From: a virus
Direction: 5' to 3' (one strand)
Virus record (IMG/VR): IMGVR_UViG_3300008262_000017
Span: 1 to 64,000 of that record
Length of the DNA stretch: 64,000 bases
The position numbers and the translations under genes are program-made. Positions within the stretch are counted from its first letter, which is position 1. Each line of letters starts with the position of its first letter. Of the stretch, positions 4,113 to 29,372 are shown one piece after another. The notes beneath the pieces are model-generated. The model worked only from the letters and a program-made list of their open reading frames with translations. It ran no database searches and was not told the origin of the DNA.

Positions 4113-4116
4113 TATT

Positions 4117-5153: not shown

Positions 5154-5154
5154 A

Positions 5155-5358: not shown

Positions 5359-5362
5359 TGCT

Positions 5363-8961: not shown

Positions 8962-8962
8962 G

Positions 8963-8995
8963 ATAAATATATGCGTACATTAAAAAGGACGCATA
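8963..8995 (+). promoter_or_regulatory. T4-late-like promoter ATAAATA plus hairpin TATGCGT/ACGCATA around the RBS
   Basis: ATAAATA at 8963-8969; inverted repeat 8970-8976/8989-8995 around AAGGA; ATG at 8997. Confidence 0.55.
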
Positions 8996-8996
8996 C

Positions 8997-13863: not shown

Positions 13864-14534
13864 AAGTTAAATTAGTATCTTATAGCAAGCCCACAGAGGA
13901 ATTTCAAAATCAAGACATTGAAGATGCTCTTGATCTTGTTGCATACTGTGCTCGTGTAAGTAATCCTGCTAATCAGTTCAATACAGAAACTAGTGAAAAA
14001 CTAATTAAGTATTTGATCAAACATCAACATTGGTCACCTCTCGAAATGGTTTCAGCTTGTATTGAAATTGAAACTACTAGAGATATTGCTCGACAAATTT
14101 TACGTCATCGTTCATTTAGTTTTCAAGAGTTTAGTCAACGCTATGCTGATCCTACAGCAGAATTAGGCGAAGCGTTTGTAGTCCGTGAAGCACGTTTTCA
14201 GGACACAAAGAATAGGCAGAACAGTGTTGAGTTTGATATGAACGACGAAAGCCAACGTTTACTGGCTATTGAATGGGAACGTGCTCAAAAGCGTGTGCTA
14301 TTTGCAGTAGAAAAAGAATACAAATGGGCTATTGCAAATGGCATTGCTAAAGAACAAGCTCGAGCCGTTCTTCCTGAAGGACTTACAGTAAGTCGCATGT
14401 ATATGAACGGAACTATCCGTAGTTGGATCCATTACATTAACTTGCGTAAGGAAAACGGAACGCAAAAAGAACACATGGAGATTGCTCAAGCATGTGCTAA
14501 GATTATTTCCGAAGTATTTCCTTTAGAAATTTAA
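13860..14534 (+). CDS. thyX: FAD-dependent thymidylate synthase
   Basis: ThyX motif RHRSFSFQEFSQRY; also HWSPLE, EQARAVLP, TQKEH. Confidence 0.95.
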   Translation: MKVKLVSYSKPTEEFQNQDIEDALDLVAYCARVSNPANQFNTETSEKLIKYLIKHQHWSPLEMVSACIEIETTRDIARQILRHRSFSFQEFSQRYADPTAELGEAFVVREARFQDTKNRQNSVEFDMNDESQRLLAIEWERAQKRVLFAVEKEYKWAIANGIAKEQARAVLPEGLTVSRMYMNGTIRSWIHYINLRKENGTQKEHMEIAQACAKIISEVFPLEI

Positions 14535-15491
14535 TTTAAATGTTTTATACAACCAATCGAAATCATTAATCCTATGAGTTTCGGTTGGTTGTGTTTCGGC
14601 AAATAGTTTACCTGCTACTGCTCCTGCAATAGCATATTCCCCAAACAATTTATCAGCGCCTTGTGTACACCATGTATCAAGGCGCTGTTCTGTTTCTTCC
14701 GTTACTTGTCTATTAATAGATTTGCTGGCTAATTTAACACATTCTCTAAATGCACTTTTCCATGTGTTAAAAGGATCTGTATTAAACGCTGTAATGTTGC
14801 TGGCGTTATCCATTATTTTAAAATTGTTACTGATACTAGTTGTCATATCAGTTGAACTAGTGTCCATACCTAGTGTTAGTTGTCTAGGTAAGAGTTTAAC
14901 TCCTCCATATCCGTATTCTAAATTATTAATAGGATTTTTACTTCTCCATACATGAACTGTTTCAGCGTCCCATGTAGGTACGTGATAGTCAAAGTTGAAA
15001 CTGTCTAATATTAAAGCATCACCGTCAACTACCCAGAATAACGGAGTATCAGATATTTCAGCTGCTTTTATATGAGCATTATGAATACCTTTAACTCCGT
15101 GTACTCTTTTAGCAGTAGGTTGTTTATCTTTTAGTGCTTGGAAATTACTGTCTGCATTAGGTTCGTTATAGCTTATAAAGACAATATCATAAATTTTAGA
15201 TTTTGGGGTGCTTGCTTGTATGTTCCATTCTTTGCGGGTAATCAAGAATCTACTATTAAATTCTCTTTCACTAACTGGTCGATGCTTACTCATTAACATA
15301 ATACCATCATAATGATCCCCGTTAAGAAATACATGATTCATTTTACGATCATATTCATTGTCATGACTAAAATAAATATCAAACTTAAAAGAAGGACTAA
15401 TGACGATATCATCAGGCACTACCCAAAACATCTCAGTTGGGGAATCTGTTAATGCTTTTAAATAATCTTGATAAGATTTAATTGACAACAT
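14523..15491 (-). CDS. GT-A-like glycosyltransferase (C-terminal part of an apparently frameshifted repeat protein)
   Basis: One repeat unit, then YDIVFISYNEPNA...RVHGVKGIH.AH...FWVVDGD (DxD)...YGYGGVKL...AFRECVKL; paralog of 30700..31590. Confidence 0.65.
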   Translation of the reverse strand: MLSIKSYQDYLKALTDSPTEMFWVVPDDIVISPSFKFDIYFSHDNEYDRKMNHVFLNGDHYDGIMLMSKHRPVSEREFNSRFLITRKEWNIQASTPKSKIYDIVFISYNEPNADSNFQALKDKQPTAKRVHGVKGIHNAHIKAAEISDTPLFWVVDGDALILDSFNFDYHVPTWDAETVHVWRSKNPINNLEYGYGGVKLLPRQLTLGMDTSSTDMTTSISNNFKIMDNASNITAFNTDPFNTWKSAFRECVKLASKSINRQVTEETEQRLDTWCTQGADKLFGEYAIAGAVAGKLFAETQPTETHRINDFDWLYKTFKLNF

Positions 15492-16776
15492 ACTGCTGAT
15501 ATGTTACAGGACCACTAGCAACAATATCCCACTCTTTACGTTCTAATGGAGTCCTATACTCTATTTCACGTTTGCTAAGAGGTTTGTTTTTACTGCAAAG
15601 GAAAATACCGTTGTAGCTGTCTTTATCTCCAACACGATGTATAAATGCATGTGTTTGACCTCTATCATAACTGTTGTGATGACTAAAATAAATGTCAAAC
15701 TCAAAATCTAAGGCTGTAGCAATGTTACGGCTTGTCATCCAAAACATCTCTGTTGAACTTCTTTCAAGTGCTTCTTGATATTCTTCCCATGAGTCAATGT
15801 AAAAAATATCGTACTTCTTAGGAACACTTGCAACAATATCCCAATCTTTTTTATTTGTTAAAAATCTGTACTTGAACTCTCTCTCACTTATAGGACTGTG
15901 CTTACTTAACAGCATTACTCCGTCATAGTGCTCACCATTTAAAAATACATGATTTGTCTTTCTATCGAAATCGTTATCATGGCTAAAATAAATGTTAAAA
16001 TCAAAGTTAGAATCTAACTTAACGTCATTAGGTATTACCCAAAATAGTTCAGTAGGACTCTTTTCTACCAGTTCTAAATATTGCTCATATGTAGTTACAA
16101 GTCCGCAATAGTTTTCATAGTTTTTAGGAAGGCTTGCTACAATGTCCCACTCTCGACGATGGATTGGAAATCTATGTTCAACTTCTTTCTTGCTTAATGG
16201 CTTATTCTTACTGCAAAGAAATATGCCATTGAAAAAGTTAGACACCGGAGTTTGATGTACAAATGCATGATTTTGATTTCTGTCATCAGTATTGTAATGG
16301 CTAAAGTACATGTCAAACTTAAAGTCAGCATGTGTTTCTAAGTTCTTACCGGTCATCCAAAACATTTCTGTTGTAGATGTAGTTAGAGCTTCTTGATATT
16401 CTTCCCAAGAATCAATATAAAAAATATCATATATTTTAGGAACACTTGCCTGTACATCGATTTCTTTTTTCTTAATAAAAAATCGATGCTTTAGTTCTCT
16501 TTCTGATACATTTGCATTTTTAGGAAATAAACAGACGCCGTCGTAGAACTCGCCATTTTTAAAAACGTGTGTATAAGGTCTGTCCCATTCTGGGACTTTA
16601 TAATCAAAATTAAAATTTAGATTTAGCTTTAAATCATCCCATATTACCCAAAACATTTTTGTCAAACTCATTTGTTTAGCTTGAGCAAAGTTATCAACTT
16701 GTTTTGCTAACGGAAATCTTATTTTTAATTTTTGATATTCGTCGTTACTTTTACCTACAAAAAATATATCGTACAT
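15478..16776 (-). CDS. Repeat protein made of degenerate GT-A-like units (N-terminal part)
   Basis: About four ~105-aa repeats, YDIF...T(E/K)MFW...FD.YFSH...H.F..G...G..L..K...S..E...R....E.DI.AS.P. Confidence 0.7.
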   Translation of the reverse strand: MYDIFFVGKSNDEYQKLKIRFPLAKQVDNFAQAKQMSLTKMFWVIWDDLKLNLNFNFDYKVPEWDRPYTHVFKNGEFYDGVCLFPKNANVSERELKHRFFIKKKEIDVQASVPKIYDIFYIDSWEEYQEALTTSTTEMFWMTGKNLETHADFKFDMYFSHYNTDDRNQNHAFVHQTPVSNFFNGIFLCSKNKPLSKKEVEHRFPIHRREWDIVASLPKNYENYCGLVTTYEQYLELVEKSPTELFWVIPNDVKLDSNFDFNIYFSHDNDFDRKTNHVFLNGEHYDGVMLLSKHSPISEREFKYRFLTNKKDWDIVASVPKKYDIFYIDSWEEYQEALERSSTEMFWMTSRNIATALDFEFDIYFSHHNSYDRGQTHAFIHRVGDKDSYNGIFLCSKNKPLSKREIEYRTPLERKEWDIVASGPVTYQQYVVN

Positions 16777-16828: not shown

Positions 16829-17875
16829 TTAGCTATAGTCGCCGTATTCATCATCTCTAACTGTGTCTAATGTAGCACAGTGAGGACCGCCGCTGAGTGT
16901 ACGACAATGACGCATTACTACAGGCATAATATCAAAACCGTTTCTTTCTAATTGTTTTATTAAACGAGTTTGTCTAGATTCTACTGCAACTAGTTTATCG
17001 CTAATGCTTAACACATTCATTCCTAACCAAGGACTAGCTGTAGCCCAATCTTTAACATAAGGAGTTTCAATAGGATCTTCGGACCAAATCTTTTTCCAAT
17101 TTTTAAAATATTCTGGTAAATTATTTTCGTTAACTCTACTAGGATTTAGCAATACTGTTCCTGCTGCCAAAGGAAGAATTGTAGTATCTACATGTACGTA
17201 GGCATAGATATTATCCATTACATGAACCTTATAGCGATCACCTAATGTACTCTGTAACCATTTTGCACCCATCCTATTGCCGCTGTTGCTAACAAGGTAG
17301 AATATATCCTTGCCACACTTAATGACATTAGCAGCATCAAAAGCTGGTTCAAAGTCTGTAAGTGTAGACTTACTTAGATCTGTACGATCATATAATGCAT
17401 CTAACAATTCACCTTTAGGAGCACTGATCCAACGACTGCCTGCGTTAAAGTAGTTCTTAAAAATATCTTTGTAAGCAAAGTTTTCAAAATACCTTGCACG
17501 TAAAGGCATAGGTGTTTCTATAATAGTGTCGCCTATAATTAGTGTGCTGTCTCTTGGGCAATAACCATAATAAGCATCTGTAGACCAATAAGGATTACTG
17601 TGTTGTGTAGCATAATCAAACACTTTAGGTCGGAGAACTTTAACACCTACAGACTCTAACTGTTTTTGAAATACATCTAAATCTTCTACAGTTTCTTCAA
17701 TAATCTGATCCGGATAATAACCTCCTGGCAATCCATTAACTATGTCGTAGTTAGCATAGTCTACACAATGTATGTCGTGTCTTTTAATACTAGGAACCTG
17801 TGCATATTCAGCACGACCTAGTATAACTTCTTTTAGTGTTCCCCACTCTGTATTTGAATTAGCTTTTAACATCAT
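16829..17875 (-). CDS. L-arginine amidinotransferase (glycine/inosamine-phosphate amidinotransferase family)
   Basis: EWGTLKEVILG, CPRD, FDAAN, HVDTT, LGMNVLS and catalytic GGPHCATLD. Confidence 0.9.
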   Translation of the reverse strand: MMLKANSNTEWGTLKEVILGRAEYAQVPSIKRHDIHCVDYANYDIVNGLPGGYYPDQIIEETVEDLDVFQKQLESVGVKVLRPKVFDYATQHSNPYWSTDAYYGYCPRDSTLIIGDTIIETPMPLRARYFENFAYKDIFKNYFNAGSRWISAPKGELLDALYDRTDLSKSTLTDFEPAFDAANVIKCGKDIFYLVSNSGNRMGAKWLQSTLGDRYKVHVMDNIYAYVHVDTTILPLAAGTVLLNPSRVNENNLPEYFKNWKKIWSEDPIETPYVKDWATASPWLGMNVLSISDKLVAVESRQTRLIKQLERNGFDIMPVVMRHCRTLSGGPHCATLDTVRDDEYGDYS

Positions 17876-19047
17876 TTATTAGATAACCTTGTATTTCCGT
17901 AATGAATAACATTCACACCTAGTATAGGTGCAAGTTTTCTGCATGTATCTATAACAACTGATCCTTTTGGCCAAATGATTTGTTCTACCCAATCTTCCCA
18001 ATAAGAAATTAGATAGACTTCAGCTTTAGGAAAAAAATTGTCCCCAGTGTTTAAATCGTAGTAATTTAAAAATCCGCCGTGTTTAGAAATGTAATGTCCA
18101 ACTAACATACTAGGAGATCCTACAGTTACATTTACTTTAGGTTTGTAACTTTTACCTACAATACAAACTGTATTGCCAAAATCTAAACATCGTTGCGCCA
18201 TTCTTTCAGCTTGAACTTCTCTGGATACAGAAATTGCTTCAAACAAATCATAACCCAAATCAAGTTTTTTAGACAAATATCGTTGTGCTATATTATCTCG
18301 AGGTTGGCAAGCGCCGCCTGCACCCATACCTGCTTTCATGTAACTAGCACTAGTAATCATCTTTGTAGATTTCATTAATGCATTTCCTACTACATCTACG
18401 TCAATGTTTCCATTAGATTCAGCTACATCTTGTATCATATTGATAAAGCTTAATTTCATACTGATAAATGTATTATAAAACATTTTAATACTTTCAGCTT
18501 CATCCCAAGTTCCTACTTCGTAACGAGGATTGTTTTCCATTAACGTCTTATAAAAATCAACTAGTACTTCAGGAGTAGATCCATCTTCTGTACCAATGAT
18601 AATCATTTCTGGATTTGCCATATCTTGTTTAACCGTGCCCATTGCAATAAGATAAGGGTTGTATACAAAGGTAGCATTTGGAATATATTTTATTAAATGA
18701 TTTCTTACTGTGCCAACTAATACTGTTGAAACTAATACAACTATTTGATTCTTATCGACATATTTGTTAATTTCAATTAAACAATTAATTACTGTATCAT
18801 ATAAAAAATCTCTAGGAGGTAAGTGACTAGAAGGAGTTTCTCCTCCATATTCTTTATCATGAGGAGTTGGTACAGCAATAAAGATTATGTCTTTTCCTTC
18901 TACTGCTTCTTTGATAGAATTTACCATTAAGAAATTTGCAGGGGTTCTCGGAACTACATCGTAGCCAACTACTTTATGTTTTGTAGCCATTACTTCGGCA
19001 CAATTAATACCTAAGTTTCCGCAACCAATCATTGATACATTTTTCAT
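17872..19047 (-). CDS. UDP-glucose/GDP-mannose dehydrogenase family, full length
   Basis: GCGNLG, FIAVPTPH, YNPYLIAMG, K.FYNTFIS.K, GGACQPRDN, and a C-terminal GKSYKP domain. Confidence 0.85.
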   Translation of the reverse strand: MKNVSMIGCGNLGINCAEVMATKHKVVGYDVVPRTPANFLMVNSIKEAVEGKDIIFIAVPTPHDKEYGGETPSSHLPPRDFLYDTVINCLIEINKYVDKNQIVVLVSTVLVGTVRNHLIKYIPNATFVYNPYLIAMGTVKQDMANPEMIIIGTEDGSTPEVLVDFYKTLMENNPRYEVGTWDEAESIKMFYNTFISMKLSFINMIQDVAESNGNIDVDVVGNALMKSTKMITSASYMKAGMGAGGACQPRDNIAQRYLSKKLDLGYDLFEAISVSREVQAERMAQRCLDFGNTVCIVGKSYKPKVNVTVGSPSMLVGHYISKHGGFLNYYDLNTGDNFFPKAEVYLISYWEDWVEQIIWPKGSVVIDTCRKLAPILGVNVIHYGNTRLSNK

Positions 19048-19055
19048 TTTTTATT

Positions 19056-20261
19056 TTAAAAGAAACATAGTTTCTTAAGCCTGTTATAAGATTCTTGAAC
19101 ATAGTTTTTTGATTGAAGTAAATTAAAATTGTGTTCAATTAAATCTTTAGATCTTTTTATATTTTCTATTTTTAGATCCCTACTTAATGACATCCATTTT
19201 GTTAGACTTAAATGAAATTGATAAAATCTAGTTATAGGATCTATTATCTCATCATAACTTTGATCTATTCCATAAAAATTAGTTTTATAACCTAGATCTC
19301 TAAAACATTTTAATATTCCAGGTTGTCCTAGAATCATAAAAGGGTGTCCTGCTGCTATAGGTTTAAAAGCCTTTTCTGTAATAAACATTCCAGAATAAAA
19401 ATATGAAGATTCTGTAATTACACTGAGTAAACTGTTTTTATAGATATTATGATTAAAAATTGCAGTGTCATCACCGTCAGGATTTACGTTAAACCATTTA
19501 CCGTCTACTGTTAATGGTCCTACTTCATCTAGCGTAGTCTTTATATTTTTATATGTAACATTATGAAACATAGGAACAAATTTAAAGTCCTTAGGAAGAT
19601 GGCCACTGACTAATCCTTTTTGATATTCTTTATTTTTAATTAACCGATACAAATGTTCTATTCTATGAGTTCTGTTGGTTCTGTTTAGACTGTTAAAATC
19701 TTTTGATTCTTCATTTTTTATAGCATCTAAACACAAAGGATACTCAGGAAATTTATTATCAAAATAATAAAAACATGTTAAAAAATAACAGTGCCTTATC
19801 ATCGGAGATTGATTATTTTCACAGCACCATTTATGATAATCTTGTTCAAAAAATAAATTCGCATCACCTACAATAACACTAAATTTAGGAAGACCTAATT
19901 TTTGCATTACTTTATGTATTCTGTCATATCCATCACATTTATCATATACCATCGGCCAACCTTCTCCTTGACCATTTAAGAATATTTTTAATTTTCCCTG
20001 TTTAGCTAGGTATAATGCATCTTTAGATATAAAATCTAACACATGTTTATCTGTATCGTTAATTTTTGACCATGCTCTAGAAACTCCAACACTTATGTTG
20101 TAAATTCCTTTTTCTTCAAAGTCAGATAATAATTTAGGTACAAATCCTGATTCTATCAATTGATGTTTAATAATGTTAATGTCATCAGCTACTGCATAAG
20201 GAAAATTAATTTCATTATACAAATTATTAACGGTTAAATCATCGAAGTAAGCAGGTATCAT
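19056..20261 (-). CDS. Putative glycosyltransferase, TEK..KPI family, paralog 1
   Basis: SVITES...FITEKAFKPI..GHPF...G....L...GYKT...IDQSYD; resembles a GT10/GT47-like C-terminal lobe (inference). Confidence 0.5.
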   Translation of the reverse strand: MIPAYFDDLTVNNLYNEINFPYAVADDINIIKHQLIESGFVPKLLSDFEEKGIYNISVGVSRAWSKINDTDKHVLDFISKDALYLAKQGKLKIFLNGQGEGWPMVYDKCDGYDRIHKVMQKLGLPKFSVIVGDANLFFEQDYHKWCCENNQSPMIRHCYFLTCFYYFDNKFPEYPLCLDAIKNEESKDFNSLNRTNRTHRIEHLYRLIKNKEYQKGLVSGHLPKDFKFVPMFHNVTYKNIKTTLDEVGPLTVDGKWFNVNPDGDDTAIFNHNIYKNSLLSVITESSYFYSGMFITEKAFKPIAAGHPFMILGQPGILKCFRDLGYKTNFYGIDQSYDEIIDPITRFYQFHLSLTKWMSLSRDLKIENIKRSKDLIEHNFNLLQSKNYVQESYNRLKKLCFF

Positions 20262-21769
20262 AATTTTTTACAATTTTGATAAAAGGCTGCTAACTCAGGA
20301 AATGTTGTTGACAAGTTTAAGTTTTTTCTAACATCATATTGATCAAAATAACTGGCAAAGTTTTTTCTATCTAATGCTAGCTTGTTAAAATCTAATGAAG
20401 TTCTTTCTCTCATTATTGCAAGATTTCTTTCAAGTTTAGCTATTTCAAAATCATAAAATCCATCAAAGTTATCAACATTGCTGTTGGCTTTCATAAACTC
20501 TATTGCTTCTTCTAAATAGATATCAAACTCATAAGGTAGTAGTTGTACGCTCTGCCATTCTGGACTTCTTAATAAAGGAACATCGAACCAAATACGTTGA
20601 CGAGGATGAATTTCATAGTCAGGATGTTTTGTCCAAGGATCAACAATAGGAATATATTTTATGCCTTGTTTTTCTTTTGAAAATTCTTTTCTAAGCTCAA
20701 GAACATACTCTAAATAATTTTTAATCTTAGGGACACTTAAAATATTAAAAGTGTTAATAAATGTAACTGTAGTATTAGAAGTTTCTGTTAAGAACCTTGA
20801 TACATTGTCTTTCATTGTTTGAAAGTTTAAACCTGAACGAATATATTCAGCTTGTTCGTCAACGCTATCTACGCTGACAAATAAGGCAAAGTTTTTAACT
20901 GCCATATTCACATACCAGTTATTGCCTGAGCCGGGATTAAATCTTTCTTTTTCTTCCCATATTTGTATTTTTTCAAGCTTCTTTACTTTTTCAACAAACT
21001 TATCCATTAGTTCTTGCTTAGGAGGACACATGTTTGTTGTTACACTTACTTCTAACCAAGCATTGGGGTTTTCATAAATGTAATCAAGAACTTTAAATGT
21101 GTTAGCATCCATTAGAGGTTCTCCGCCAGTCATACGGAACACTTCTAATTTCTTATACAACTGAGGCCACCACTTCCAAAAAGCTTCAACATAGGGATTG
21201 TCTCCTTGTTTTACTTTCAATGGCATGTTGAGATACTCTAGTGCATTGTGCTTGCTAGCATTGCCGTTGGAGTCTAAAACATTGTAAGGTCCATGTTGTT
21301 CAACTTCGTCTTCCCAACTAGTGCTAAGGTGAGGACTGCAATACATACATTTAAAGTTACATGCTTGATTAAAGTTAACTTCTAAATAACGAGGATCTAC
21401 ATTGCCTGTGTCTAATGCTTCAATAATATCTTTACGTGCGTTTTGAGCCCAGTATTCACCGCTTCGGTATATACGATCACTACGTGCTCCAGCATCTTCA
21501 ATTCTCCAACAGTAGCTGCATCCATCAGGTCGTTCGCCCTTAAGCATTAACTTGCGTTCTAATTTTTTATGATCTGTGTTATGTAGAGCAGCTGGATTTT
21601 TTTTAATATCGTCTATACTGATTTTATGCAACGGAGGATGATAGCAACTGTGAGTCATTCCATTGGTCAGATGCATACTTGCCTGCGTCCATTTTGCATA
21701 GCACATTGATTTGCTAATAAGGTTTAGCTGTTTTTCTGCTGTGTCAGCAGCTTGATTGTAATTACTCAT
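20258..21769 (-). CDS. Radical SAM protein with N-terminal Twitch-like Cys cluster, paralog 1
   Basis: CYAKW...HSCYHP...CSYCW followed by CNFKCMYC and TGGEPL. Confidence 0.85.
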   Translation of the reverse strand: MSNYNQAADTAEKQLNLISKSMCYAKWTQASMHLTNGMTHSCYHPPLHKISIDDIKKNPAALHNTDHKKLERKLMLKGERPDGCSYCWRIEDAGARSDRIYRSGEYWAQNARKDIIEALDTGNVDPRYLEVNFNQACNFKCMYCSPHLSTSWEDEVEQHGPYNVLDSNGNASKHNALEYLNMPLKVKQGDNPYVEAFWKWWPQLYKKLEVFRMTGGEPLMDANTFKVLDYIYENPNAWLEVSVTTNMCPPKQELMDKFVEKVKKLEKIQIWEEKERFNPGSGNNWYVNMAVKNFALFVSVDSVDEQAEYIRSGLNFQTMKDNVSRFLTETSNTTVTFINTFNILSVPKIKNYLEYVLELRKEFSKEKQGIKYIPIVDPWTKHPDYEIHPRQRIWFDVPLLRSPEWQSVQLLPYEFDIYLEEAIEFMKANSNVDNFDGFYDFEIAKLERNLAIMRERTSLDFNKLALDRKNFASYFDQYDVRKNLNLSTTFPELAAFYQNCKKL

Positions 21770-22680
21770 AATAGTTTGTAAATTTCTTTTGCGGCTTGTT
21801 CGTGTATTTCTGTGCCGGGATGAACTAAATCTCTTGCATTTATGTTAGCTGTAACATATATGTCTGCTCTATTAATGTGTGCCATATAATCAAAGTAACT
21901 TAAAGTTACATATTTGATTCCTCTACACATGGCTTTTACAGCTTTTGATATATAATAATTTTCACCTACTTCGTGATATCTGTTTATATATCTGCTTTCC
22001 CAAGTTTGAGATAAATTAAGTCCGTCTAAATATTCTTCTGCTACACCAGTTACTGTTTTAGAATTCCAAGGACCTATATCAAAATATCTATTTTTAAAAA
22101 AATGTCTATATCTATCACCGGTTGTCCAGTTTACAACAACAGCATAAGGGGTTGGAAATTTTTCCAAGGTTAGCGCACATAAATGTGAAATTAAACTATT
22201 TGAACCTCCAGATGTTCCAAGATTTACTACTTGTCTTCCTGTTGATTTTTCTATATAATATGCTAAAGTTTCATCTTCTGCTACTCCAACACCGTAGGTA
22301 TTAGAACATCCTAAAAGTAATATTGCATTAGGCCAATCTATATCATCCCATTCGTATGTTCTATAGCCACTAGAATTAACTTTATATTCCACTTGCTTAG
22401 TTAGATACTTCCAATCAGGCCCCATTTTAATTTTGTTACGCTCAAATTCTTTAGGACCGTCTGAACTGGACCAAATATTTAAAATATTTCCGCTATTGTC
22501 TCTATGTGTTAGACTGTTACAGAAAAATAAAGGATGTTCTTTATTATCTACATATCCAGGAAAATATGCAGGGTATTCAATTCCTTCCATATTTCGATGA
22601 ACTACTTCCATATGGAATTTTTCATCTTCTAGAAAGTGACGTTCACCGTCCCAGAAAACTTTTTCTTCGTATTTTTTCAT
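21766..22680 (-). CDS. SGNH/GDSL-like esterase or acyltransferase, paralog 1
   Basis: GCSNTYG (block I), VVNLGTSGGSN (block II), DLVHPG (block V). Confidence 0.65.
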   Translation of the reverse strand: MKKYEEKVFWDGERHFLEDEKFHMEVVHRNMEGIEYPAYFPGYVDNKEHPLFFCNSLTHRDNSGNILNIWSSSDGPKEFERNKIKMGPDWKYLTKQVEYKVNSSGYRTYEWDDIDWPNAILLLGCSNTYGVGVAEDETLAYYIEKSTGRQVVNLGTSGGSNSLISHLCALTLEKFPTPYAVVVNWTTGDRYRHFFKNRYFDIGPWNSKTVTGVAEEYLDGLNLSQTWESRYINRYHEVGENYYISKAVKAMCRGIKYVTLSYFDYMAHINRADIYVTANINARDLVHPGTEIHEQAAKEIYKLL

Positions 22681-23705
22681 AGAGTTTTAATGTGATTATA
22701 CAGTAGTTTAGCATAAAGGTCATGTGCTTTGACGCCCGGATGAGCACAGGGAGTCATCCAACCATTAGGAGTTCTATTTCCTAAAAACTGAAAAAAGAAA
22801 TCGTTAGTGCTTTCTAAACTAGGCTCTTTACTCATTGCTAAATCAGCCAACGTTTGAAATCCTTCTGGTTTAAACATTTTTTCCCAAGGCCATAAATTTG
22901 CAAGACGCTTATGCTCTTTGCTGTTATCATAGGTAAAAAAGCCAGGAGGTGCAATTGTCTTTACATTGCCGTCCATATCTCTTTCAATTGAAACAGATAG
23001 TTCATGTTCAAAATATTCTCTATCATATCTTCTATCAAACCCTGGAGTAACAATAAGTTTTGCATTTCGAAGTTTGCACCAAGTCATTAACTCTTGGACA
23101 TGTGCTAGTTGTTCAATCACTCCAAATTTTTCAGTATAAAGAGATTTATTATAACCTGTCCACAGATGCTCTCTGCCGTTGCTGGGATTTTCAGTGATGT
23201 TAGGCCACATTGCTTTCCAATGAAAATGTTCAGGCCATAGATCATTAACAAAGTCAAACCGTTCTATACCACTTGGCATATATACCACTACTAACTCTTT
23301 AATGTCATCCCAGTTTATTTCAGGTCTAAAATAAAGTTCTTTAATTGATGCTCTGTTTCCGCAACCTCTAATCCCCAAGTTGATAGGTGCGTATTCACCA
23401 TCAAAGTATTTTTCGCACAATACATTAACAAATGCATTTTTATATTCCATTAATGTAAAATCAAGAACATGATCCGGATCAGGTCTAATAATTCCGGGAT
23501 GTTTTTTTAGAATTTCAAATTTTTGTGCATTTGTTATATCAATTCTAATAGGATATCCCATTCCTTGATATTTCCAAGTATAGTTATCATACAAGTCATC
23601 ATCTATGGCGCCTTGTCCTTGAACAAAAGAACAACCTATTGATACTACTGCTTTTCCTGTTCTTTTAATAGTTTTATTAATTAAAGGTATCTGGCTGTGT
23701 AACAT
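22677..23705 (-). CDS. SGNH/GDSL-like protein, paralog 2
   Basis: GCSFVQG, INLGIRGCGN, CAHPG. Confidence 0.6.
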   Translation of the reverse strand: MLHSQIPLINKTIKRTGKAVVSIGCSFVQGQGAIDDDLYDNYTWKYQGMGYPIRIDITNAQKFEILKKHPGIIRPDPDHVLDFTLMEYKNAFVNVLCEKYFDGEYAPINLGIRGCGNRASIKELYFRPEINWDDIKELVVVYMPSGIERFDFVNDLWPEHFHWKAMWPNITENPSNGREHLWTGYNKSLYTEKFGVIEQLAHVQELMTWCKLRNAKLIVTPGFDRRYDREYFEHELSVSIERDMDGNVKTIAPPGFFTYDNSKEHKRLANLWPWEKMFKPEGFQTLADLAMSKEPSLESTNDFFFQFLGNRTPNGWMTPCAHPGVKAHDLYAKLLYNHIKTL

Positions 23706-25069
23706 TATTTCTCCAAGTGTGCCTTTATTGTTTCGATCATATCTTTTACATAATTAGACGTTCTAGTTTTTAAAGTATCAAAGTTATGTTTAATAATAGG
23801 TTCTAAGTTTTTAAACCATTCTAATCTTTCTTGATCGGACATGGCATTAAGTCTTACTAGTTCTTTAGTAATAGCTTGCATTCTTTCCCAAGTAGGTAAC
23901 TCGTCGTAGCTTTCATCAATATAAGGATGGAATGTTTTGTATCCCATTTCTTTTAAGTTTTTAAGAATATTCTTACTACCTAAAATAATAAATGGTTGTT
24001 GACATGCTATAGGTTTAAAAGTTTTTTCGCTGATAAAACATGCACCTTCGCTGTCTCCGTAGCTAGCTTCGCTAACTACAGTACACCAACTGTCTAAAAT
24101 AGTTAAGTCATTTAACGACAATACATAGTTGGCGCCGTCACCTGAATAGAAATTATCAGGAGTATATGCAGGAGGATTCTCTATTGGTATCATTGGTAGT
24201 ATAGCGTCTAACTTATCAAAGTCAGCAGTATCCATTTTTCTACCTTCAAAATAAGTGCTTTCTACATCAAACTTATTCATTGTTACAATATTTCCTTTAA
24301 TTAAACCTGCATCGTAGATATGTTTAAAGAACCACTGTCTATATGCTCTAGGTCTTTTTTGCAAAATATTAAACATTGCAATCTTTGATAAGTCTGCTGT
24401 TTTATGTTCTATATGCGTTTCAAAGGTAGGAAGTTTTCTTCTTTCTGAAACTCCTGGAGGTAAATGTCCTGTATCATAACTATTAGATATTTCATTTACT
24501 ACGTGTTCAAAATGAGCAAGCGGGATTGTTAAGATCCTAGGAACTAGTTTACATTCGTCTGCCCATTTATTGTACTGTTTACTACAATCCATGTTACCGG
24601 TAATATAAATTATCTTACCAGGGTGTATGCCATATTCATTACAGTTATTATGAAACCATTGCCACATCCAATCTGATTGGTATCCTTCATGTGTTTGATC
24701 TATTAACAAATAGGCCTTGCCATTTCTCAAGTCTTCCAAGTACTGTTCATTTATAAAAGCAAACAATGATTTTCTATTAGGAAAATCTTCGTTGTATCCG
24801 TTTTTATAAGTGTCAGGACCACACCAGTCATAAGGACTATGTGCAACACCTACAGGAATAATATATGTCTCATCAACAGGAGGAGTCAATACTACTTTAA
24901 CTGCTGTTGCATATTCTCTATGTAATTGTGCTTCAGTTCTTAAAATTCTTAAAAGTGTCGATGTTACAGGACTTACTGTGATTCTACCTATACTGGATTT
25001 GTTAACATCTTCACAATTGGTAAGATTTAAAGGAAGCTCATCTACTATTTTTTCAAATACAAAATACAT
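23705..25069 (-). CDS. Putative glycosyltransferase, TEK..KPI family, paralog 2
   Basis: VVSEA...FISEKTFKPIACQQPFI..G....L..MGYKTFHPYIDESYD; start 25069 abuts the upstream stop. Confidence 0.5.
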   Translation of the reverse strand: MYFVFEKIVDELPLNLTNCEDVNKSSIGRITVSPVTSTLLRILRTEAQLHREYATAVKVVLTPPVDETYIIPVGVAHSPYDWCGPDTYKNGYNEDFPNRKSLFAFINEQYLEDLRNGKAYLLIDQTHEGYQSDWMWQWFHNNCNEYGIHPGKIIYITGNMDCSKQYNKWADECKLVPRILTIPLAHFEHVVNEISNSYDTGHLPPGVSERRKLPTFETHIEHKTADLSKIAMFNILQKRPRAYRQWFFKHIYDAGLIKGNIVTMNKFDVESTYFEGRKMDTADFDKLDAILPMIPIENPPAYTPDNFYSGDGANYVLSLNDLTILDSWCTVVSEASYGDSEGACFISEKTFKPIACQQPFIILGSKNILKNLKEMGYKTFHPYIDESYDELPTWERMQAITKELVRLNAMSDQERLEWFKNLEPIIKHNFDTLKTRTSNYVKDMIETIKAHLEK

Positions 25070-26076
25070 TACATCAATCTTTCTGACCAAGTTTTAGGAG
25101 TATATTGATTAATAATTTCTAAAGGATATGTATAATCAAACGGCTTAGAGCCTCTACTTTTTATATATTCAATAGTACTACGAACACCTTCTACTAACGA
25201 CGTAGAAGTGTTGTATCCTAAAAATTCCCTAGCCTTGTTAGCATCGCAAGTTGCATACTTAATTTCTTTAGGACGATCAGGCATAAAAATAGGATCTCCT
25301 TTGAAATTTAATTCTGACATAATCAACTCAGCGAGACGTTTAATAGTAACAAATTCTTCATCTGGGCCAATATTAAATGTGTCATTTTTAATGTTAGGGT
25401 CAAGTGCTAATTTTTCTAAACAATAGATACAGTCATCAATAAAACTAAAACAACGCATTTGACTTCCATCGCCGTATATTATTGGAGGTTTATCTTGCAG
25501 TACACGGTTAATCATAATACTCATTACATTACGGAACGGGTCGTCATAACGCTGTCTAGGCCCAACAATGTTGTGAGGTATAGCAACAATCCATTCCATA
25601 CCGTTCATAGGAGCAAGTGCTTTAAGAACGTCTTCACCTGCTACTTTGGCAATACCATAAGGATCAACTGGATCAGGACGCTGTGTTTCTTTAAATGGAT
25701 ATTCTTGATTACCATAACGTGCCATGCTTGAACAGTAGACAAATCGTTTTACTTTGTTTTGTATTGCTGCACTAATAGTCGACACACTTGCTTGAAAGAT
25801 ATTGTTAGTAATAAAGTAAGGACTGAATACACTTAGTCCTTCGTGAGGAGTTGCAGCAGTATGAAATACAATGTCACACCCTTTAGAAACTTCAACCATG
25901 AAATCTAGATGGCAACAGTCGCCGCGTTTAAAATCTACGCCAGCAGGAATGTTGTCTACATATCCTCCTGTTAGATTGTCACATCCTACAACTTCGTGTC
26001 CTAACGCCAACATTCTATCAGCTAGATGACTTCCTAGAAATCCTGCTACTCCTGTAATTAAAATACGTTTTTTCAT
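25069..26076 (-). CDS. NAD-dependent nucleotide-sugar epimerase/dehydratase (extended SDR)
   Basis: GVAGFLG, SSMARYG, YGIAK, HNIVGP, GDGSQ.R.F. Confidence 0.92.
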   Translation of the reverse strand: MKKRILITGVAGFLGSHLADRMLALGHEVVGCDNLTGGYVDNIPAGVDFKRGDCCHLDFMVEVSKGCDIVFHTAATPHEGLSVFSPYFITNNIFQASVSTISAAIQNKVKRFVYCSSMARYGNQEYPFKETQRPDPVDPYGIAKVAGEDVLKALAPMNGMEWIVAIPHNIVGPRQRYDDPFRNVMSIMINRVLQDKPPIIYGDGSQMRCFSFIDDCIYCLEKLALDPNIKNDTFNIGPDEEFVTIKRLAELIMSELNFKGDPIFMPDRPKEIKYATCDANKAREFLGYNTSTSLVEGVRSTIEYIKSRGSKPFDYTYPLEIINQYTPKTWSERLM

Positions 26077-27257
26077 AATTCTCCGCCTGTGCCTGGTACT
26101 GGCAAATTCTTTTCTAAATATGGTTCAACCCATGCAAATTCTTTTTGTAAAGAAACGGCTTCTCTAAGTTTGTTCATAATTTGAAAATTATGTTTTGCAA
26201 TCTCATTGCATTTGTTCATAACTTCTAAAAATTCTTCTTGTGGCATTTTACATAGTCTTTCAACTTCTGCAACAATAGCATTTAATCTTTTAACATCATC
26301 TCTAATATTGTCATAACTTTCGTCAATATAAGGATGAAAAGTTTTATAACCTAAATTTTTAAATTCTTTTAAAAACCAAGGCGTTGAAAAAACGATAAAA
26401 GGTCGTTGACATGCTATCGGTTTATACATTTTTTCAGTAGGAAAACTTGGACTAAAACTCTGAGGATGCATGGCTCTATGTCCTCCAAAGTTCCAGAACG
26501 GATCAAAGTGAGATTCCACTACAATATTAATTCCTGATGTTTGAATTAAATTAAATGCATCAGCTGCAAGTTTTTCTTGAATATGATCTTTAGGCAGCGT
26601 GTAAGGCATGCCGTCTACCCATTTTTCTAACTCAGGAGTTAAGGGAATTTCTAATGTTGCTAAATCTGCTTTTACATTTTCAATTGGATACACTGTAAGT
26701 TTACCATAAGGGTTTATATTATTAAAAGTATAATTAAAATGCTTTGTTAATAATTTTTTATTAAAAATCTCAGCATATAAATGTAGTCTCCATTTGTTAT
26801 AGTTTCTGCTTAACATACTAAATCTTTTTGCTAATGGTTTAATTTTTTGAGGCTTAACCCTATCCATTAGTAAATTAAAATCTTGTATATTAACTCCCTT
26901 ATATCCTTTTTCAGCAAATTGTGCAATAGTCCAACTGAGCCAATTTTTATCAAGACACATTAGATATACCTGGTTAGGTGCAATGTTCCATTTTTTCAAA
27001 GTTGCTATCCAGTCTTCCATGTCTAGCCAGTTATAATATTCGTCACCGTAAAACATGAATATTTTTGAAGTTGGGTCTCGTTGTAAATGTTCCCAATGGG
27101 GCTTATCTATAAATCGATTGAACGGAGTTCCTTTTATAACCATATCGTGTTGGTCATACCAATAGATAGAGTTTTCTTGAAATTTAGCTGCTTTTAAAGG
27201 TCTAAATAACTTTGGATCAAAATATCCATGATGAGAGTTAGTCTTTGTGTATATCAT
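26073..27257 (-). CDS. Putative glycosyltransferase, TEK..KPI family, paralog 3
   Basis: IVVES...FPTEKMYKPIACQRPFI...LGYKTFHPYIDESYD. Confidence 0.5.
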   Translation of the reverse strand: MIYTKTNSHHGYFDPKLFRPLKAAKFQENSIYWYDQHDMVIKGTPFNRFIDKPHWEHLQRDPTSKIFMFYGDEYYNWLDMEDWIATLKKWNIAPNQVYLMCLDKNWLSWTIAQFAEKGYKGVNIQDFNLLMDRVKPQKIKPLAKRFSMLSRNYNKWRLHLYAEIFNKKLLTKHFNYTFNNINPYGKLTVYPIENVKADLATLEIPLTPELEKWVDGMPYTLPKDHIQEKLAADAFNLIQTSGINIVVESHFDPFWNFGGHRAMHPQSFSPSFPTEKMYKPIACQRPFIVFSTPWFLKEFKNLGYKTFHPYIDESYDNIRDDVKRLNAIVAEVERLCKMPQEEFLEVMNKCNEIAKHNFQIMNKLREAVSLQKEFAWVEPYLEKNLPVPGTGGEL

Positions 27258-27986: not shown

Positions 27987-29372
27987 TTACTCCTTATTAT
28001 TCAGTTGTTGGCACTCTTCAAAAAATGTAGTCATTTCAGGAAAAGTCTCTAAGAAATTTACATCTCTTCGTTTGTCATATTCCGTAAACCAGTTGTAAAA
28101 ATCTTTTCTACCTTCTAGTATTCTTTCTTCTGAATATGTTTTAGTAGCAAAGTAATCTCTTACACGTCTGAATCTTTCATATTCTAAATCGCTAAACTTA
28201 GTAGAATCATTTTCATCTAAGTTGTCTTTAACAAAATTTAAAATTTTATCAAAATAAGGAAGATATTCTTCCTTAGGTAAAATAAGCATGTCATATTGTA
28301 ATGGTTCTTTTAGATAAGGAATATCAAAAATAATCTTTCTAGTTTTAGAACTATCGTAAATGTCTTTGTATTTTGATCGCCATTCTAAAACTTTTTCTAA
28401 AAAAGAAACGTAACTGGTTACACTTAATATATTAAAGGTACACATAAAAGTTACAGGCCTTGCTGTTTTTCTAATAAACAGATCTAAGTTCTTTTCCCAT
28501 AATTCTAAATCAAGACCTGTACGTAGATACTCAGCACGTTTACCCCAAGTGTCCATACTTGAAAAAACTTTAAATTCTTTTATCTTATTGTTAGATAATA
28601 AATCATTTACATTGTCAGCTAACTTTTCAACCATTGCTGTTTTTACACCAAGGTTACTATTAATATTAAGTTCTAAATGAGGTTTAGGTTCTTCACGAAG
28701 TGTGTCAAATAATCTCCAAGTACTTTTATGCATTAACGGTTCTCCGCCGGTGATGCGAAGAATGTTTAATGTCTTAGACATTTCTGGCCACCATTTCCAC
28801 CAAGCTTCAATCCACGGATTATCTTCTTCTTGTTGAACTTTGAACCATTCAATACTGTTGCCGTGATTTTTTACTTTAGGGTAAGGACCATGCTGTTTGA
28901 TTTCGCTGTAGTAACTACTAGAGTGTTTAGGATGACAATAACCGCACTTAAAGTTACATTCGTTACTAAAACTAATTTCAATGTAGTCTGGATTTACATT
29001 AAGATCCCATCTGTTTGATGTTATTTCGTCTACCATTTCAGGTCGATACAATGCTGCATTACGAATGTGCCTATCACTGATATGATCACCACCTAAGTTT
29101 TCCACATTCCAACAGTACTGACAACCTTTTGGTTTTTCTCCTACTAGCATTTCAGCACGTTCTTTTTTCTTTTGAATAGTGTTGTGCAATGCGCTGGGAT
29201 TAGTTTTTAATTCAATTAACGGAATATCATGAGGTGCAGGATGATAGCAACTGTGCGTTTGTCCCATGTGCATATACATAGTTACATGATGCCATTTAGC
29301 CAAACAAAATGTAGGACTAATTTCATTTGTTATTTCTATAACTTTTCTAATTTTGTCTGTTTCTCGACTCAT
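27987..29372 (-). CDS. Radical SAM protein with N-terminal Twitch-like cluster, paralog 2
   Basis: CLAKW...HSCYHP...CQYCW; CNFKCGYC; TGGEPL. Confidence 0.85.
   Translation of the reverse strand: MSRETDKIRKVIEITNEISPTFCLAKWHHVTMYMHMGQTHSCYHPAPHDIPLIELKTNPSALHNTIQKKKERAEMLVGEKPKGCQYCWNVENLGGDHISDRHIRNAALYRPEMVDEITSNRWDLNVNPDYIEISFSNECNFKCGYCHPKHSSSYYSEIKQHGPYPKVKNHGNSIEWFKVQQEEDNPWIEAWWKWWPEMSKTLNILRITGGEPLMHKSTWRLFDTLREEPKPHLELNINSNLGVKTAMVEKLADNVNDLLSNNKIKEFKVFSSMDTWGKRAEYLRTGLDLELWEKNLDLFIRKTARPVTFMCTFNILSVTSYVSFLEKVLEWRSKYKDIYDSSKTRKIIFDIPYLKEPLQYDMLILPKEEYLPYFDKILNFVKDNLDENDSTKFSDLEYERFRRVRDYFATKTYSEERILEGRKDFYNWFTEYDKRRDVNFLETFPEMTTFFEECQQLNNKE

What the first reader, a model, noticed from the sequence alone, without database searches (positions are those of the whole stretch)
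16829..19047. Arg-dependent amidinotransferase coupled to a nucleotide-sugar dehydrogenase in a phage
Seen: an intact Cys-His-Asp amidinotransferase overlaps the stop of a nucleotide-sugar dehydrogenase. Known: this family makes guanidinoacetate (AGAT) or streptidine (StrB1) and is unrelated to the QueF-like/ArcS/Gat-QueC enzymes that make archaeosine. Inference: it puts a guanidino group on an amino-sugar or on an amine-bearing base such as preQ1, giving a cationic modification I do not know from phages. No aminotransferase is present in this window, so the amine acceptor is unknown.
Basis: partly seen in the sequence, partly recalled or inferred. Interest (0 to 1): 0.75.

Follow-up and report, generated by a model that had tools for sequence, protein, structure and literature searches.

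The report
Phage amidinotransferase inside glycan island
A giant lake-water phage carries an intact streptomycin-type enzyme that turns an amine into a positively charged guanidino group, set in a 20-kb block of sugar-modifying genes behind its tail-fibre genes; it probably makes a guanidino sugar that nobody has detected, and here the aminotransferase that most close relatives place beside it is missing.

Summary
Window 16829-17875(-) encodes a 348-aa amidinotransferase. It matches StrB1 (1bwd) over its full length: E 4e-102, model TM 0.95, 46% identity. Cys333, His228 and Asp180 are in place. Its ATG overlaps the stop of a 391-aa UDP-glucose/GDP-mannose-type dehydrogenase that keeps Cys247.

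Both genes lie in a 20-kb run of soluble enzymes directly behind the tail-fibre genes of a roughly 350-kb lake phage. The run holds three radical SAM enzymes, a 2OG oxygenase, an SDR enzyme and GT-B-like and GT-A-like proteins.

The enzyme belongs to a virus-specific clade. At least 356 IMG/VR contigs encode a relative, and no bacterial genome exceeds 49% identity.

In 13 of 15 close relatives the gene sits beside a half-size DegT/StrS aminotransferase and a 2OG oxygenase. That supports an amino-sugar to guanidino-sugar step. This phage's island lacks that aminotransferase, so its amine acceptor is still unknown.

The preQ1-DNA idea is not supported. No TGT/DpdA was found here or in a 93%-complete relative.

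The gene has been annotated in phages since 2010, but its function has never been tested. This scan has already flagged the same cassette on other DNA, with 342 notes in at least 218 genomes. No product has been shown. I rate it a new variant of a known kind, of moderate interest.

The parts
16829..17875 (-). StrB1-type L-arginine-dependent amidinotransferase, 348 aa (Cys333-His228-Asp180; guanidino-binding Asp109 and Asp230)
17872..19047 (-). UDP-glucose/GDP-mannose-family nucleotide-sugar 6-dehydrogenase, 391 aa (GxGxxG at 8-13, Cys247 in GGACQPRD); its stop overlaps the amidinotransferase ATG
14523..16776 (-). Two ORFs (432 and 322 aa) made of ~104-aa degenerate GT-A-like repeats plus a C-terminal GT-A-like domain with a DGD motif. 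Relatives have one fused protein of 854-1066 aa.
   Evidence: the split is seen in L003, L012 and three runs
19056..20261 (-). Probable GT-B glycosyltransferase, virus-specific family with a GT10-like TEK motif; paralogues at 23705-25090 and 26073-27257
   Evidence: fold evidence weak: VIA Z 6.8 at best
20258..21769 (-). Radical SAM enzyme with an N-terminal twitch domain (NF033640, 310 bits); 70-72% identical in relatives
21766..22680 (-). Unknown 304-aa protein of the island
   Evidence: no family
22677..23705 (-). Unknown 342-aa protein; SGNH/GDSL-hydrolase-like as a lead only. Its homologue directly follows the amidinotransferase in relatives.
23705..25090 (-). GT-B-like paralogue, 461 aa
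25069..26076 (-). SDR NAD-dependent epimerase/dehydratase (PF01370, 150 bits)
26073..27257 (-). GT-B-like paralogue, 394 aa
27254..27985 (-). P4H-type 2OG-Fe(II) oxygenase (PF13640). In relatives its homologue sits directly before the mini-DegT and the amidinotransferase.
27987..30703 (-). Two further radical SAM paralogues (461 and 444 aa)
30700..31605 (-). 301-aa protein similar to the C-terminal GT-A-like domain of the repeat protein
31580..34156 (-). Four unassigned ORFs (198, 277, 279 and 118 aa) at the head of the island, directly behind the fibre genes

Best explanation
P0001 is a working L-arginine-dependent amidinotransferase of the StrB1 type.

Mechanism, inferred from the family: Cys333 attacks the guanidino carbon of arginine, ornithine leaves, and the enzyme-bound amidino group passes to a primary amine, giving a guanidino group.

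The acceptor, inferred from context, is most likely an amino sugar. It could be nucleotide- or phosphate-activated, or already part of a glycan. The sugar would belong to a glycan built by the surrounding 20-kb island of soluble enzymes: the UGDH-type dehydrogenase, an SDR enzyme, a 2OG oxygenase, three radical SAM enzymes and GT-B-like and GT-A-like proteins.

In most close relatives the amine is made on the spot by a half-size DegT/StrS aminotransferase encoded next to the amidinotransferase, preceded by a 2OG oxygenase. This phage's island lacks that gene. Here the amine must come from a host amino sugar or from a gene in the unsequenced three quarters of the genome.

The neighbouring dehydrogenase would supply a uronic acid in the same glycan or on the same sugar, giving a zwitterionic or cationic decoration.

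The least certain step is the target. The island sits behind the fibre genes, has no membrane proteins, and DNA-modification entry enzymes were not found. A virion protein such as a tail fibre is therefore the most likely carrier.
For: Enzyme identity (shown):
- Full-length match to StrB1, SxtG, HsvA and AGAT.
- Model TM 0.95 to 1bwd, against about 0.6 to arginine deiminase and DDAH.
- Catalytic and guanidino-binding residues invariant in 26 homologues.
- Collinear with StrB1 with no net indel, whereas the AGAT and SxtG alignments need 12-13 extra residues.

Virus-specific clade (shown):
- 356 IMG/VR contigs encode a relative.
- The best of 185,579 bacterial species genomes reaches 49% identity.
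- Viral sequences group together and the window's clade has support 99.
- No other module gene lies next to the bacterial homologues.

Sugar context (shown):
- The module of UGDH, 2OG oxygenase, mini-DegT, amidinotransferase, SGNH-like protein, N-twitch rSAM and GT-A repeat protein recurs at 43-77% identity.
- The mini-DegT keeps the SFHxxK lysine and lies within 10 kb in 13 of 15 close loci.
- S-SCSM2R has the same trio among glycosyltransferases.
- In the distant clade, 13 of 41 unique loci carry an RmlC-like cupin within 10 kb, and in the mapped loci it sits directly upstream.
- UGDH homologues in phages Bellamy and HTVC008M sit in glycan-tailoring runs.

Soluble pathway and position:
- None of the 19 island proteins has a predicted TM helix.
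- The baseplate hub lies about 44-45 kb upstream of the amidinotransferase here and in three jumbo relatives.
Against: - No product, acceptor or target has been measured for any phage amidinotransferase.
- This island has no aminotransferase, so the link that argues for an amino sugar in relatives is missing here.
- In the more distant viral clade only 6 of 41 loci have a DegT within 10 kb. The commonest neighbour there is an SPPY methyltransferase-like protein, so acceptors may differ across the family.
- The family also acts on glycine, lysine, polyamines (HsvA) and cyclitols.
- The glycosyltransferase assignments rest on motifs and weak fold matches (model pLDDT 61, VIA Z below 8).
- The virion-protein target is inferred only from gene position and negative searches.
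- Only about 25% of this genome is in hand.
Confidence: 0.5

Rival explanations
1. Small-molecule metabolic gene. The enzyme amidinates a free amine of the infected cell: glycine to guanidinoacetate, lysine to homoarginine, or putrescine or spermidine as HsvA does. It would be only loosely associated with the glycan genes.
For: - HsvA, AGAT and SxtG are strong full-length matches.
- The island has no aminotransferase.
- Most distant-clade viral loci lack a DegT.
- Ocean surveys list creatine-pathway genes among viral metabolic genes (PMC11360552).
- A second amidinotransferase-like protein of S-SCSM2R was abundant enough to appear in the virion proteome (PMC12801897).
Against: - The gene is overlap-coupled inside an operon of sugar enzymes.
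- The enzyme is collinear with StrB1 and lacks the extra residues of the glycine-type enzymes.
- Close relatives couple it to a sugar-type aminotransferase.
- The long AGAT-like forms in SAR11 and Prochlorococcus genomes form a separate clade.
Confidence: 0.17
2. DNA hypermodification. The island decorates phage DNA, and the amidinotransferase acts on an amine-bearing base (preQ1 or aminoalkyl-pyrimidine) or on a DNA-linked amino sugar.
For: - FolE and a QueE-like radical SAM gene lie at 3414-6752 of the window.
- The best, though weak, fold matches of the GT-B-like protein include the T4 alpha- and beta-glucosyltransferases.
- Bacillus phage SP-15, whose DNA I recall carrying a sugar-substituted hypermodified base, has a UGDH homologue.
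- An SPPY amino-methyltransferase-like gene adjoins the amidinotransferase in 29 distant-clade loci.
Against: - No TGT/DpdA, QueC or QueD in the record.
- No TGT and no ThyA-family hydroxymethylase in a 93%-complete relative that carries the module.
- The window's thymidylate synthase is an ordinary ThyX.
- The island holds about seven transferase-like genes, which I judge more than a DNA sugar decoration would need (inference).
- The VIA Z values are below the level the tool calls meaningful.
Confidence: 0.12
3. Free aminoglycoside-like or aminocyclitol metabolite. The enzyme set resembles streptomycin, butirosin and gentamicin pathways (StrB1-type amidinotransferase, DegT/StsC, twitch and B12 radical SAM enzymes, 2OG oxygenase, RmlC and SDR enzymes, soluble GTs). 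It would build a diffusible guanidino pseudo-oligosaccharide.
For: - The closest solved relative is StrB1.
- All enzymes are soluble.
- The S-SCSM2R authors read their genes as antibiotic synthesis (PMC12801897).
- One locus (L096) has two amidinotransferase paralogues, as streptidine synthesis needs.
Against: - No DHQS/DOIS-type or myo-inositol-phosphate synthase in this record or in the 93%-complete relative.
- No exporter or resistance gene was seen in the island.
- The island keeps a conserved position in the late structural region.
Confidence: 0.1
4. The protein is a hydrolase of the same superfamily (arginine deiminase or DDAH-like), or an inactive remnant.
For: Pfam and NCBIfam see only weak ADI and DDAH hits.
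Against: - 345 bits to StrB1, against TM about 0.6 to hydrolases.
- 65-89% identity across more than 120 clusters, with the active-site residues invariant.
Confidence: 0.03

Closest known systems
StrB1, L-arginine:inosamine-phosphate amidinotransferase of Streptomyces griseus (PDB 1bwd), acting after the DegT-family aminotransferase StsC in streptidine synthesis
   Same: Same length, collinear, 46% identity, TM 0.95, same catalytic residues. Close viral relatives repeat the order aminotransferase then amidinotransferase.
   Different: The viral sequences form their own clade. No cyclitol synthase is present. The partner aminotransferase is half-size in relatives and absent from this island. 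The context is glycosyltransferases and phage fibre genes, not an antibiotic cluster.
AGAT, CyrA and SxtG (glycine or small-amine amidinotransferases) and HsvA (polyamine amidinotransferase of Erwinia amylovora, 5wpi)
   Same: Same fold and triad; E 1e-54 to 1e-67, TM 0.86-0.89.
   Different: These enzymes carry 12-13 extra residues in the alignment. The long AGAT-like bacterial forms are a separate clade. None is encoded in a glycan operon.
Phage UGDH-centred glycan-tailoring runs in Synechococcus phage Bellamy and Pelagibacter phage HTVC008M
   Same: The UGDH homologue is 49-55% identical and sits in an operon with glycosyltransferases and tailoring enzymes.
   Different: There the neighbours are a NadE-like amidotransferase, a carbamoyltransferase and a methyltransferase. 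Neither phage record matched the amidinotransferase in the tblastn search of the phage collection.
Amidinotransferase with radical SAM modules of Campylobacter phages CP220 and CPt10, and the amidinotransferase, DegT-like and rSAM genes of Synechococcus phage S-SCSM2R
   Same: An amidinotransferase among several radical SAM and nucleotide-sugar-transferase genes. In CP220 the module also lies downstream of baseplate genes (PMC2853527, PMC12801897).
   Different: Identity is only 25-40%, and CP220 sits on a very long branch. No function was tested in either study.
UDP-2,3-diacetamido-2,3-dideoxy-uronic acid pathway (WbpA, WbpB, WbpE, WbpD) of Pseudomonas aeruginosa. This comparison is from my own knowledge.
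   Same: A UGDH-family dehydrogenase works with a DegT-family aminotransferase on one nucleotide sugar. WbpE is among the weak PDB matches of the mini-DegT.
   Different: There the amine is acetylated, or converted to an acetamidino group by a different enzyme class, not amidinated from arginine. That pathway feeds a membrane-bound O-antigen machinery, which is absent here.

Membership tests
Amidinotransferases (AGAT/StrB1 family, pentein superfamily) | Full-length sequence homology to characterised members | tested here: met
   StrB1 E 3.8e-102, SxtG 1e-67, HsvA 5e-60, AGAT 1e-54, each over about 335 residues
Amidinotransferases (AGAT/StrB1 family, pentein superfamily) | Pentein fold closer to transferases than to the hydrolases of the superfamily | tested here: met
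   Model pLDDT 87. TM 0.95 to 1bwd and 0.86-0.89 to SxtG, AGAT and HsvA, against 0.57-0.66 to ADI and DDAH
Amidinotransferases (AGAT/StrB1 family, pentein superfamily) | Cys-His-Asp catalytic triad plus two Asp that hold the guanidino group | tested here: met
   C333, H228, D180, D109 and D230 align with the StrB1 residues one position lower. They are invariant in 26 homologues. C333 maps to AGAT Cys407 by the offset. The residue roles are from my knowledge of the AGAT and StrB1 structure papers.
Amidinotransferases (AGAT/StrB1 family, pentein superfamily) | Acceptor-dependent conversion of arginine to ornithine | not testable with these tools
   Needs an enzyme assay
StrB1 orthologues (inosamine-phosphate amidinotransferase) | StrB1 architecture without the insertions of glycine-type enzymes | tested here: met
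   334 query residues align to 334 StrB1 residues, against 348 residues of AGAT or SxtG for 335-336 query residues
StrB1 orthologues (inosamine-phosphate amidinotransferase) | Falls within the actinomycete clade | tested here: inconclusive
   Viral sequences form their own group beside, not inside, the actinomycete clade. The deep branches are unresolved, and no named StrB1 sequence could be put in the tree.
StrB1 orthologues (inosamine-phosphate amidinotransferase) | A cyclitol supply (inositol-phosphate synthase or DOI synthase) in the same genome | tested here: not met
   No PF01761 or PF07994 match above cut-off in G000 or in the 93%-complete relative G002. A host supply is not excluded.
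UDP-glucose/GDP-mannose dehydrogenase family | NAD-binding and central domains, catalytic Cys | tested here: met
   PF03721 60.7 bits and PF00984 57.4 bits, above cut-off. Cys247 in GGACQPRD aligns with GGSCFPKD of 4a7p.
UDP-glucose/GDP-mannose dehydrogenase family | Reaches the curated subfamily score; substrate assignable | tested here: inconclusive
   TIGR03026 scores 150 bits against a cut-off of 189.8, and all equivalog models are far below cut-off. The nucleotide sugar used is unknown.
Phage 7-deazaguanine DNA modification (DpdA system) | DpdA/TGT transglycosylase together with a preQ0 pathway | tested here: not met
   No TGT, QueC or QueD in the 92-kb record. No TGT in G001-G003. Only FolE and a QueE-like gene are present. 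The record is a fragment.
Phage cassette of mini-DegT, amidinotransferase and 2OG oxygenase (seen in relatives and in earlier notes of this scan) | Half-size DegT aminotransferase next to the amidinotransferase | tested here: not met
   A profile of 60 mini-DegT sequences against the six-frame translation of G000 gives a best E of 0.94, with a positive control at 7.7e-137. It is present in 13 of 15 close-clade loci.
Phage cassette of mini-DegT, amidinotransferase and 2OG oxygenase (seen in relatives and in earlier notes of this scan) | P4H-type 2OG oxygenase in the same operon | tested here: met
   27254-27985 is 46-53% identical to the oxygenase that precedes the mini-DegT in relatives. Here it lies about 9.4 kb upstream in the same operon.

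The most novel reading that the evidence does not exclude
A virus-specific clade of StrB1-like amidinotransferases, present in hundreds of uncultured large phages, makes guanidino sugars. In this phage the product would be a guanidino sugar or guanidino-uronic acid placed on tail-fibre or other virion proteins. That would be a cationic glycan decoration not described for any virus or, to my knowledge, any glycan. It would be made here from a host-supplied amino sugar, because the phage's own aminotransferase is missing.
Probability: 0.3. Interest if true: 0.8.

Novelty: new variant of a known kind. Interest (0 to 1): 0.55.

Why it matters
If the product is a guanidino sugar on a virion, it would add a new building block to glycobiology. 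It would also show that large environmental phages chemically tune the charge of their surface, with possible effects on adsorption, host range and recognition.

The enzyme family is abundant. At least 356 IMG/VR contigs carry it, and there are more than 1,000 protein clusters each for the amidinotransferase and its mini-aminotransferase partner. It is strongly conserved and completely uncharacterised.

Cultivable carriers exist (Synechococcus phage S-SCSM2R, Campylobacter phages CP220 and CPt10), so the question can be tested directly.

This window adds a natural variant that has the amidinotransferase without the partner aminotransferase. That bears on where the amine comes from.

Tried and rejected
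Contexts were taken from the search for related loci instead.
- Megablast of the island against the phage collection found nothing.
- A single-sequence scan of genome contigs found no relative. The alignment-based scan did.
- Pfam, NCBIfam and PHROGs give nothing for seven island proteins.
- The ESM Atlas gave only virus-specific unnamed clusters. GT10 at 0.80 and SGNH at 0.96 are leads, not assignments.
- The P0125 model is poor (pLDDT 61). Foldseek found nothing at E 0.001 or better, and the best VIA Z is 6.8. GT-B is therefore likely but not shown.
- The one RNA run holds a single 169-nt contig across the UGDH/amidinotransferase junction. This is too little to claim transcription, and DNA carry-over is possible.
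- I looked for a remnant of the mini-DegT in the window by tblastn and by profile and found none.
- I considered a lipid-linked surface-polysaccharide pathway and rejected it, because no island protein has a TM helix.
- I considered a cyclitol acceptor and ranked it low, because no cyclitol synthase was found.
- The host was not determined.
Full report
**1. Observation**

On the minus strand, ORF 17872-19047 (391 aa) and ORF 16829-17875 (348 aa) overlap by four bases. The read is AAT AAA TGA for the first gene and ATG ATG TTA for the second.

The downstream protein, P0001, gets only a 22-bit ADI hit in Pfam. Against solved structures it matches StrB1 (1bwd) at E 3.8e-102 over residues 8-341. 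SxtG, HsvA and AGAT follow at 1e-67 to 1e-54.

An AlphaFold model built on 26 homologues has pLDDT 87. Its best match is 1bwd, with TM 0.95, rmsd 1.6 A and 46% identity. Other amidinotransferases give TM 0.86-0.89. The hydrolases of the superfamily, arginine deiminase and DDAH, give about 0.6.

D109, D180, H228, D230 and C333 align with the StrB1 residues one position lower and are invariant in the alignment. By the alignment offset, C333 corresponds to AGAT Cys407.

The upstream protein, P0002, passes the Pfam cut-offs for the NAD-binding and central domains of the UDP-glucose/GDP-mannose dehydrogenase family. It keeps GxGxxG at residues 8-13 and Cys247 in GGACQPRD. It stays below the TIGR03026 cut-off, at 150 against 189.8 bits, so its substrate cannot be named.

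Contigs of three DNA runs from different studies cover the junction at 99% identity or more.

**2. Setting**

The window is the first 64 kb of a 92,405-bp virus record that CheckV rates about 25% complete. The stretch recurs in 19 DNA runs of 13 studies, labelled lake water, freshwater and estuary.

Genes 62321 to 34226 on the minus strand are structural. They include a gp5-like hub at 60518-62317 and a 4588-aa ORF.

From 34156 down to 14523 run 19 co-oriented genes, mostly overlapping:
- four unassigned ORFs;
- a GT-A-like protein;
- two radical SAM enzymes;
- a P4H-type 2OG oxygenase;
- a GT-B-like protein;
- an SDR epimerase/dehydratase;
- a second GT-B-like protein;
- an SGNH-like protein (lead only);
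- an unknown protein;
- an N-terminal-twitch radical SAM enzyme (NF033640, 310 bits);
- a third GT-B-like protein;
- the dehydrogenase;
- the amidinotransferase;
- a repeat protein.

The repeat protein is made of ~104-aa degenerate GT-A-like units and ends in a GT-A-like domain with a DGD motif. It is split here into 432 and 322 aa, but fused into 854-1066 aa in relatives.

None of the 19 proteins has a predicted transmembrane helix. This is therefore not a lipid-linked surface-polysaccharide pathway.

The GT-B assignment rests on three things: a GT10-like TEK motif, a poor model (pLDDT 61) and weak but consistent GT-B matches. The best VIA Z is 6.8, to T4 alpha-glucosyltransferase. It is likely, not shown.

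**3. Relatives**

The amidinotransferase has more than 1,000 homologous clusters in metagenomes. The best 120 are 63-89% identical and almost all are 345-351 aa long.

IMG/VR holds 356 contigs that encode a relative. In one genome for each of 185,579 bacterial and archaeal species, the best match is 49% (Gemmatimonadota, Myxococcota and Planctomycetota MAGs). Actinomycetes reach 39-47%. Longer AGAT-like forms in SAR11 and Prochlorococcus reach 35-39%. None of those loci carries any other module gene apart from ordinary SDR epimerase/dehydratase homologues and one weak hit to the window's separate short Ugd paralogue.

In a tree of 71 sequences, 33 viral sequences group together, with SH-aLRT 86 (not strong). 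This group excludes only CP220 and one contig, L167. The window's clade of 11 has support 99. The deep order of the clades is unresolved.

Hub-to-amidinotransferase spacing is about 44-45 kb here and in three jumbo relatives. One of these, G002, is 330 kb and 93% complete. The island's place behind the fibre module is therefore conserved in a lineage of roughly 350-kb phages.

**4. What travels with the gene**

In close relatives the order is UGDH, GT-B-like, 2OG oxygenase, a 212-242-aa protein, amidinotransferase, SGNH-like, N-twitch rSAM, GT-A repeat protein. A B12 radical SAM enzyme lies nearby.

The short protein is a DegT/DnrJ/EryC1/StrS-family aminotransferase (Pfam 1.8e-21). It keeps the SFHxxK lysine but lacks the C-terminal domain. 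It has more than 1,000 clusters of its own.

I counted unique viral loci. Among the 15 close-clade loci:
- mini-DegT lies within 10 kb in 13;
- the 2OG oxygenase in 13;
- a radical SAM enzyme in 15;
- a GT-B-like protein in 12;
- UGDH in 6.

Synechococcus phage S-SCSM2R has the same oxygenase, mini-DegT and amidinotransferase among glycosyltransferases.

The more distant viral clade (40-53% identity, 41 unique loci) looks different:
- only 6 loci have a DegT;
- 13 have an RmlC-like cupin within 10 kb, which sits directly upstream in the loci mapped;
- 18 have an adjacent protein with GWGGR and SPPY methyltransferase motifs;
- 27 have at least one sugar-type gene.

But the conserved partner is the aminotransferase and oxygenase, not the dehydrogenase.

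**5. What is special here**

This island, whose two ends are both inside the window, has no aminotransferase:
- no island ORF matches an aminotransferase family in Pfam, and seven match no family at all;
- PF01041 is not found in the 92-kb record;
- tblastn with four mini-DegT sequences gives nothing below E 1;
- a profile of 60 mini-DegT sequences gives a best E of 0.94 against a control of 7.7e-137.

One other close lineage, L102, also has UGDH 1.2 kb upstream of the amidinotransferase and neither a DegT nor a 2OG oxygenase.

The amine acceptor in this phage must therefore be host-made, or made by a gene in the missing three quarters of the genome.

**6. Mechanism**

Shown: the protein has the fold, the length and all the catalytic residues of an arginine-dependent amidinotransferase, and it is under strong conservation.

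Inferred from the family: a ping-pong transfer through an S-amidino-Cys333 intermediate, with release of ornithine.

Inferred from context: the acceptor is an amino sugar of the glycan built by the island. The dehydrogenase supplies a uronic acid in the same product.

Inferred weakly: the carrier is a virion protein. The grounds are position, co-orientation with the fibre genes, the lack of membrane proteins and the negative DNA-modification searches.

**7. Rivals**

- **Base amine such as preQ1, or a DNA-linked sugar.** The window has FolE and a QueE-like gene. However, TGT/DpdA, QueC and QueD are absent. TGT and ThyA-type enzymes are absent from the 93%-complete relative. The thymidylate synthase here is an ordinary ThyX.
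- **Cyclitol or free aminoglycoside-like product.** The enzyme set resembles aminoglycoside pathways, but no DOI/DHQ-type or inositol-phosphate synthase was found.
- **Free glycine, lysine or polyamine acceptor.** HsvA and AGAT are homologues and no aminotransferase is present. The operon coupling and the StrB1-type architecture argue against it.
- **Hydrolase.** Excluded as far as sequence and fold can tell.

**8. Known or new**

Phage amidinotransferases were noted in Campylobacter phages CP220 and CPt10 in 2010, as a swappable module with five radical SAM genes (PMC2853527). They were noted again in S-SCSM2R in 2025, where they were read as antibiotic synthesis (PMC12801897). Neither study tested a function. 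I found no paper on a guanidino sugar in a phage or a glycan.

This scan has already flagged the same cassette on other DNA many times: 342 notes in at least 218 genomes. Those notes are not independent evidence. I reached the cassette reading before consulting those cassette notes.

This window is thus one more member of a virus-specific clade of a known enzyme family, in a pathway whose product is unknown. Its particular feature is that the partner aminotransferase is missing and the dehydrogenase takes its place upstream.

**Verdict:** observation confirmed, interpretation partly supported, new variant of a known kind, interest 0.55.

Noticed in passing
window 15465-15500 (junction of ORFs 15478-16776 and 14523-15491): The GT-A repeat protein is one gene of 854-1066 aa in relatives but is split here into 432 and 322 aa. 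The same split is in two other IMG/VR contigs (L003, L012). Contigs of three runs cross the site without gaps, so it is a real population feature and not an assembly error.
   Followed up: partly
L126:11060-12640, L136:8784-10004, L117:11017-12105 and 26 further loci: In the more distant viral clade the commonest direct neighbour of the amidinotransferase is a 360-526-aa protein with GWGGR and SPPY motifs and a weak N6_N4_Mtase hit. It is an amino-methyltransferase-like enzyme that might N-methylate the guanidino or amino group, or act on DNA.
   Followed up: partly
L096:4449-5435 and L096:10001-11038: One viral locus carries two amidinotransferase paralogues (40% and 78% identical to the window's). 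One lies next to the mini-DegT and B12 radical SAM genes, the other next to the 2OG oxygenase.
   Followed up: no
L005:9283-10011, L007:7586-8233, L001:9287-9874: A half-size DegT/StrS aminotransferase family (212-242 aa) keeps the PLP lysine motif but has no C-terminal domain. It has more than 1,000 clusters at 70-87% identity, almost all from metagenomes.
   Followed up: partly
window 2553-3362 (+), with 3414-4112 and 5889-6752: A second, short UGDH-like protein (269 aa, GGMCFPKD, 22% identical to P0002, no C-terminal domain) lies beside FolE and a QueE-like radical SAM gene. QueC, QueD and TGT are not in the record.
   Followed up: partly
L014 (Bellamy) 6464-9215; L015 (HTVC008M) 7240-9140: In two cultured marine phages the UGDH homologue directly follows a NadE-like amidotransferase, with a carbamoyltransferase and a methyltransferase just upstream. 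This suggests a uronamide or carbamoyl sugar pathway built around the same dehydrogenase.
   Followed up: no
window 60518-62317 against 16829-17875; G001, G002, G003: The gp5-like hub lies about 44-45 kb upstream of the amidinotransferase in this record and in three jumbo relatives. One of them is 330 kb and 93% complete.
   Followed up: partly
window 17743-17911: An estuary metatranscriptome run holds one 169-nt contig spanning the UGDH/amidinotransferase junction, with one mismatch. This is too little to claim expression.
   Followed up: partly
window 42753-56519 (-): A single 4588-aa ORF sits in the fibre region, with no predicted TM helix. It was not analysed further.
   Followed up: no
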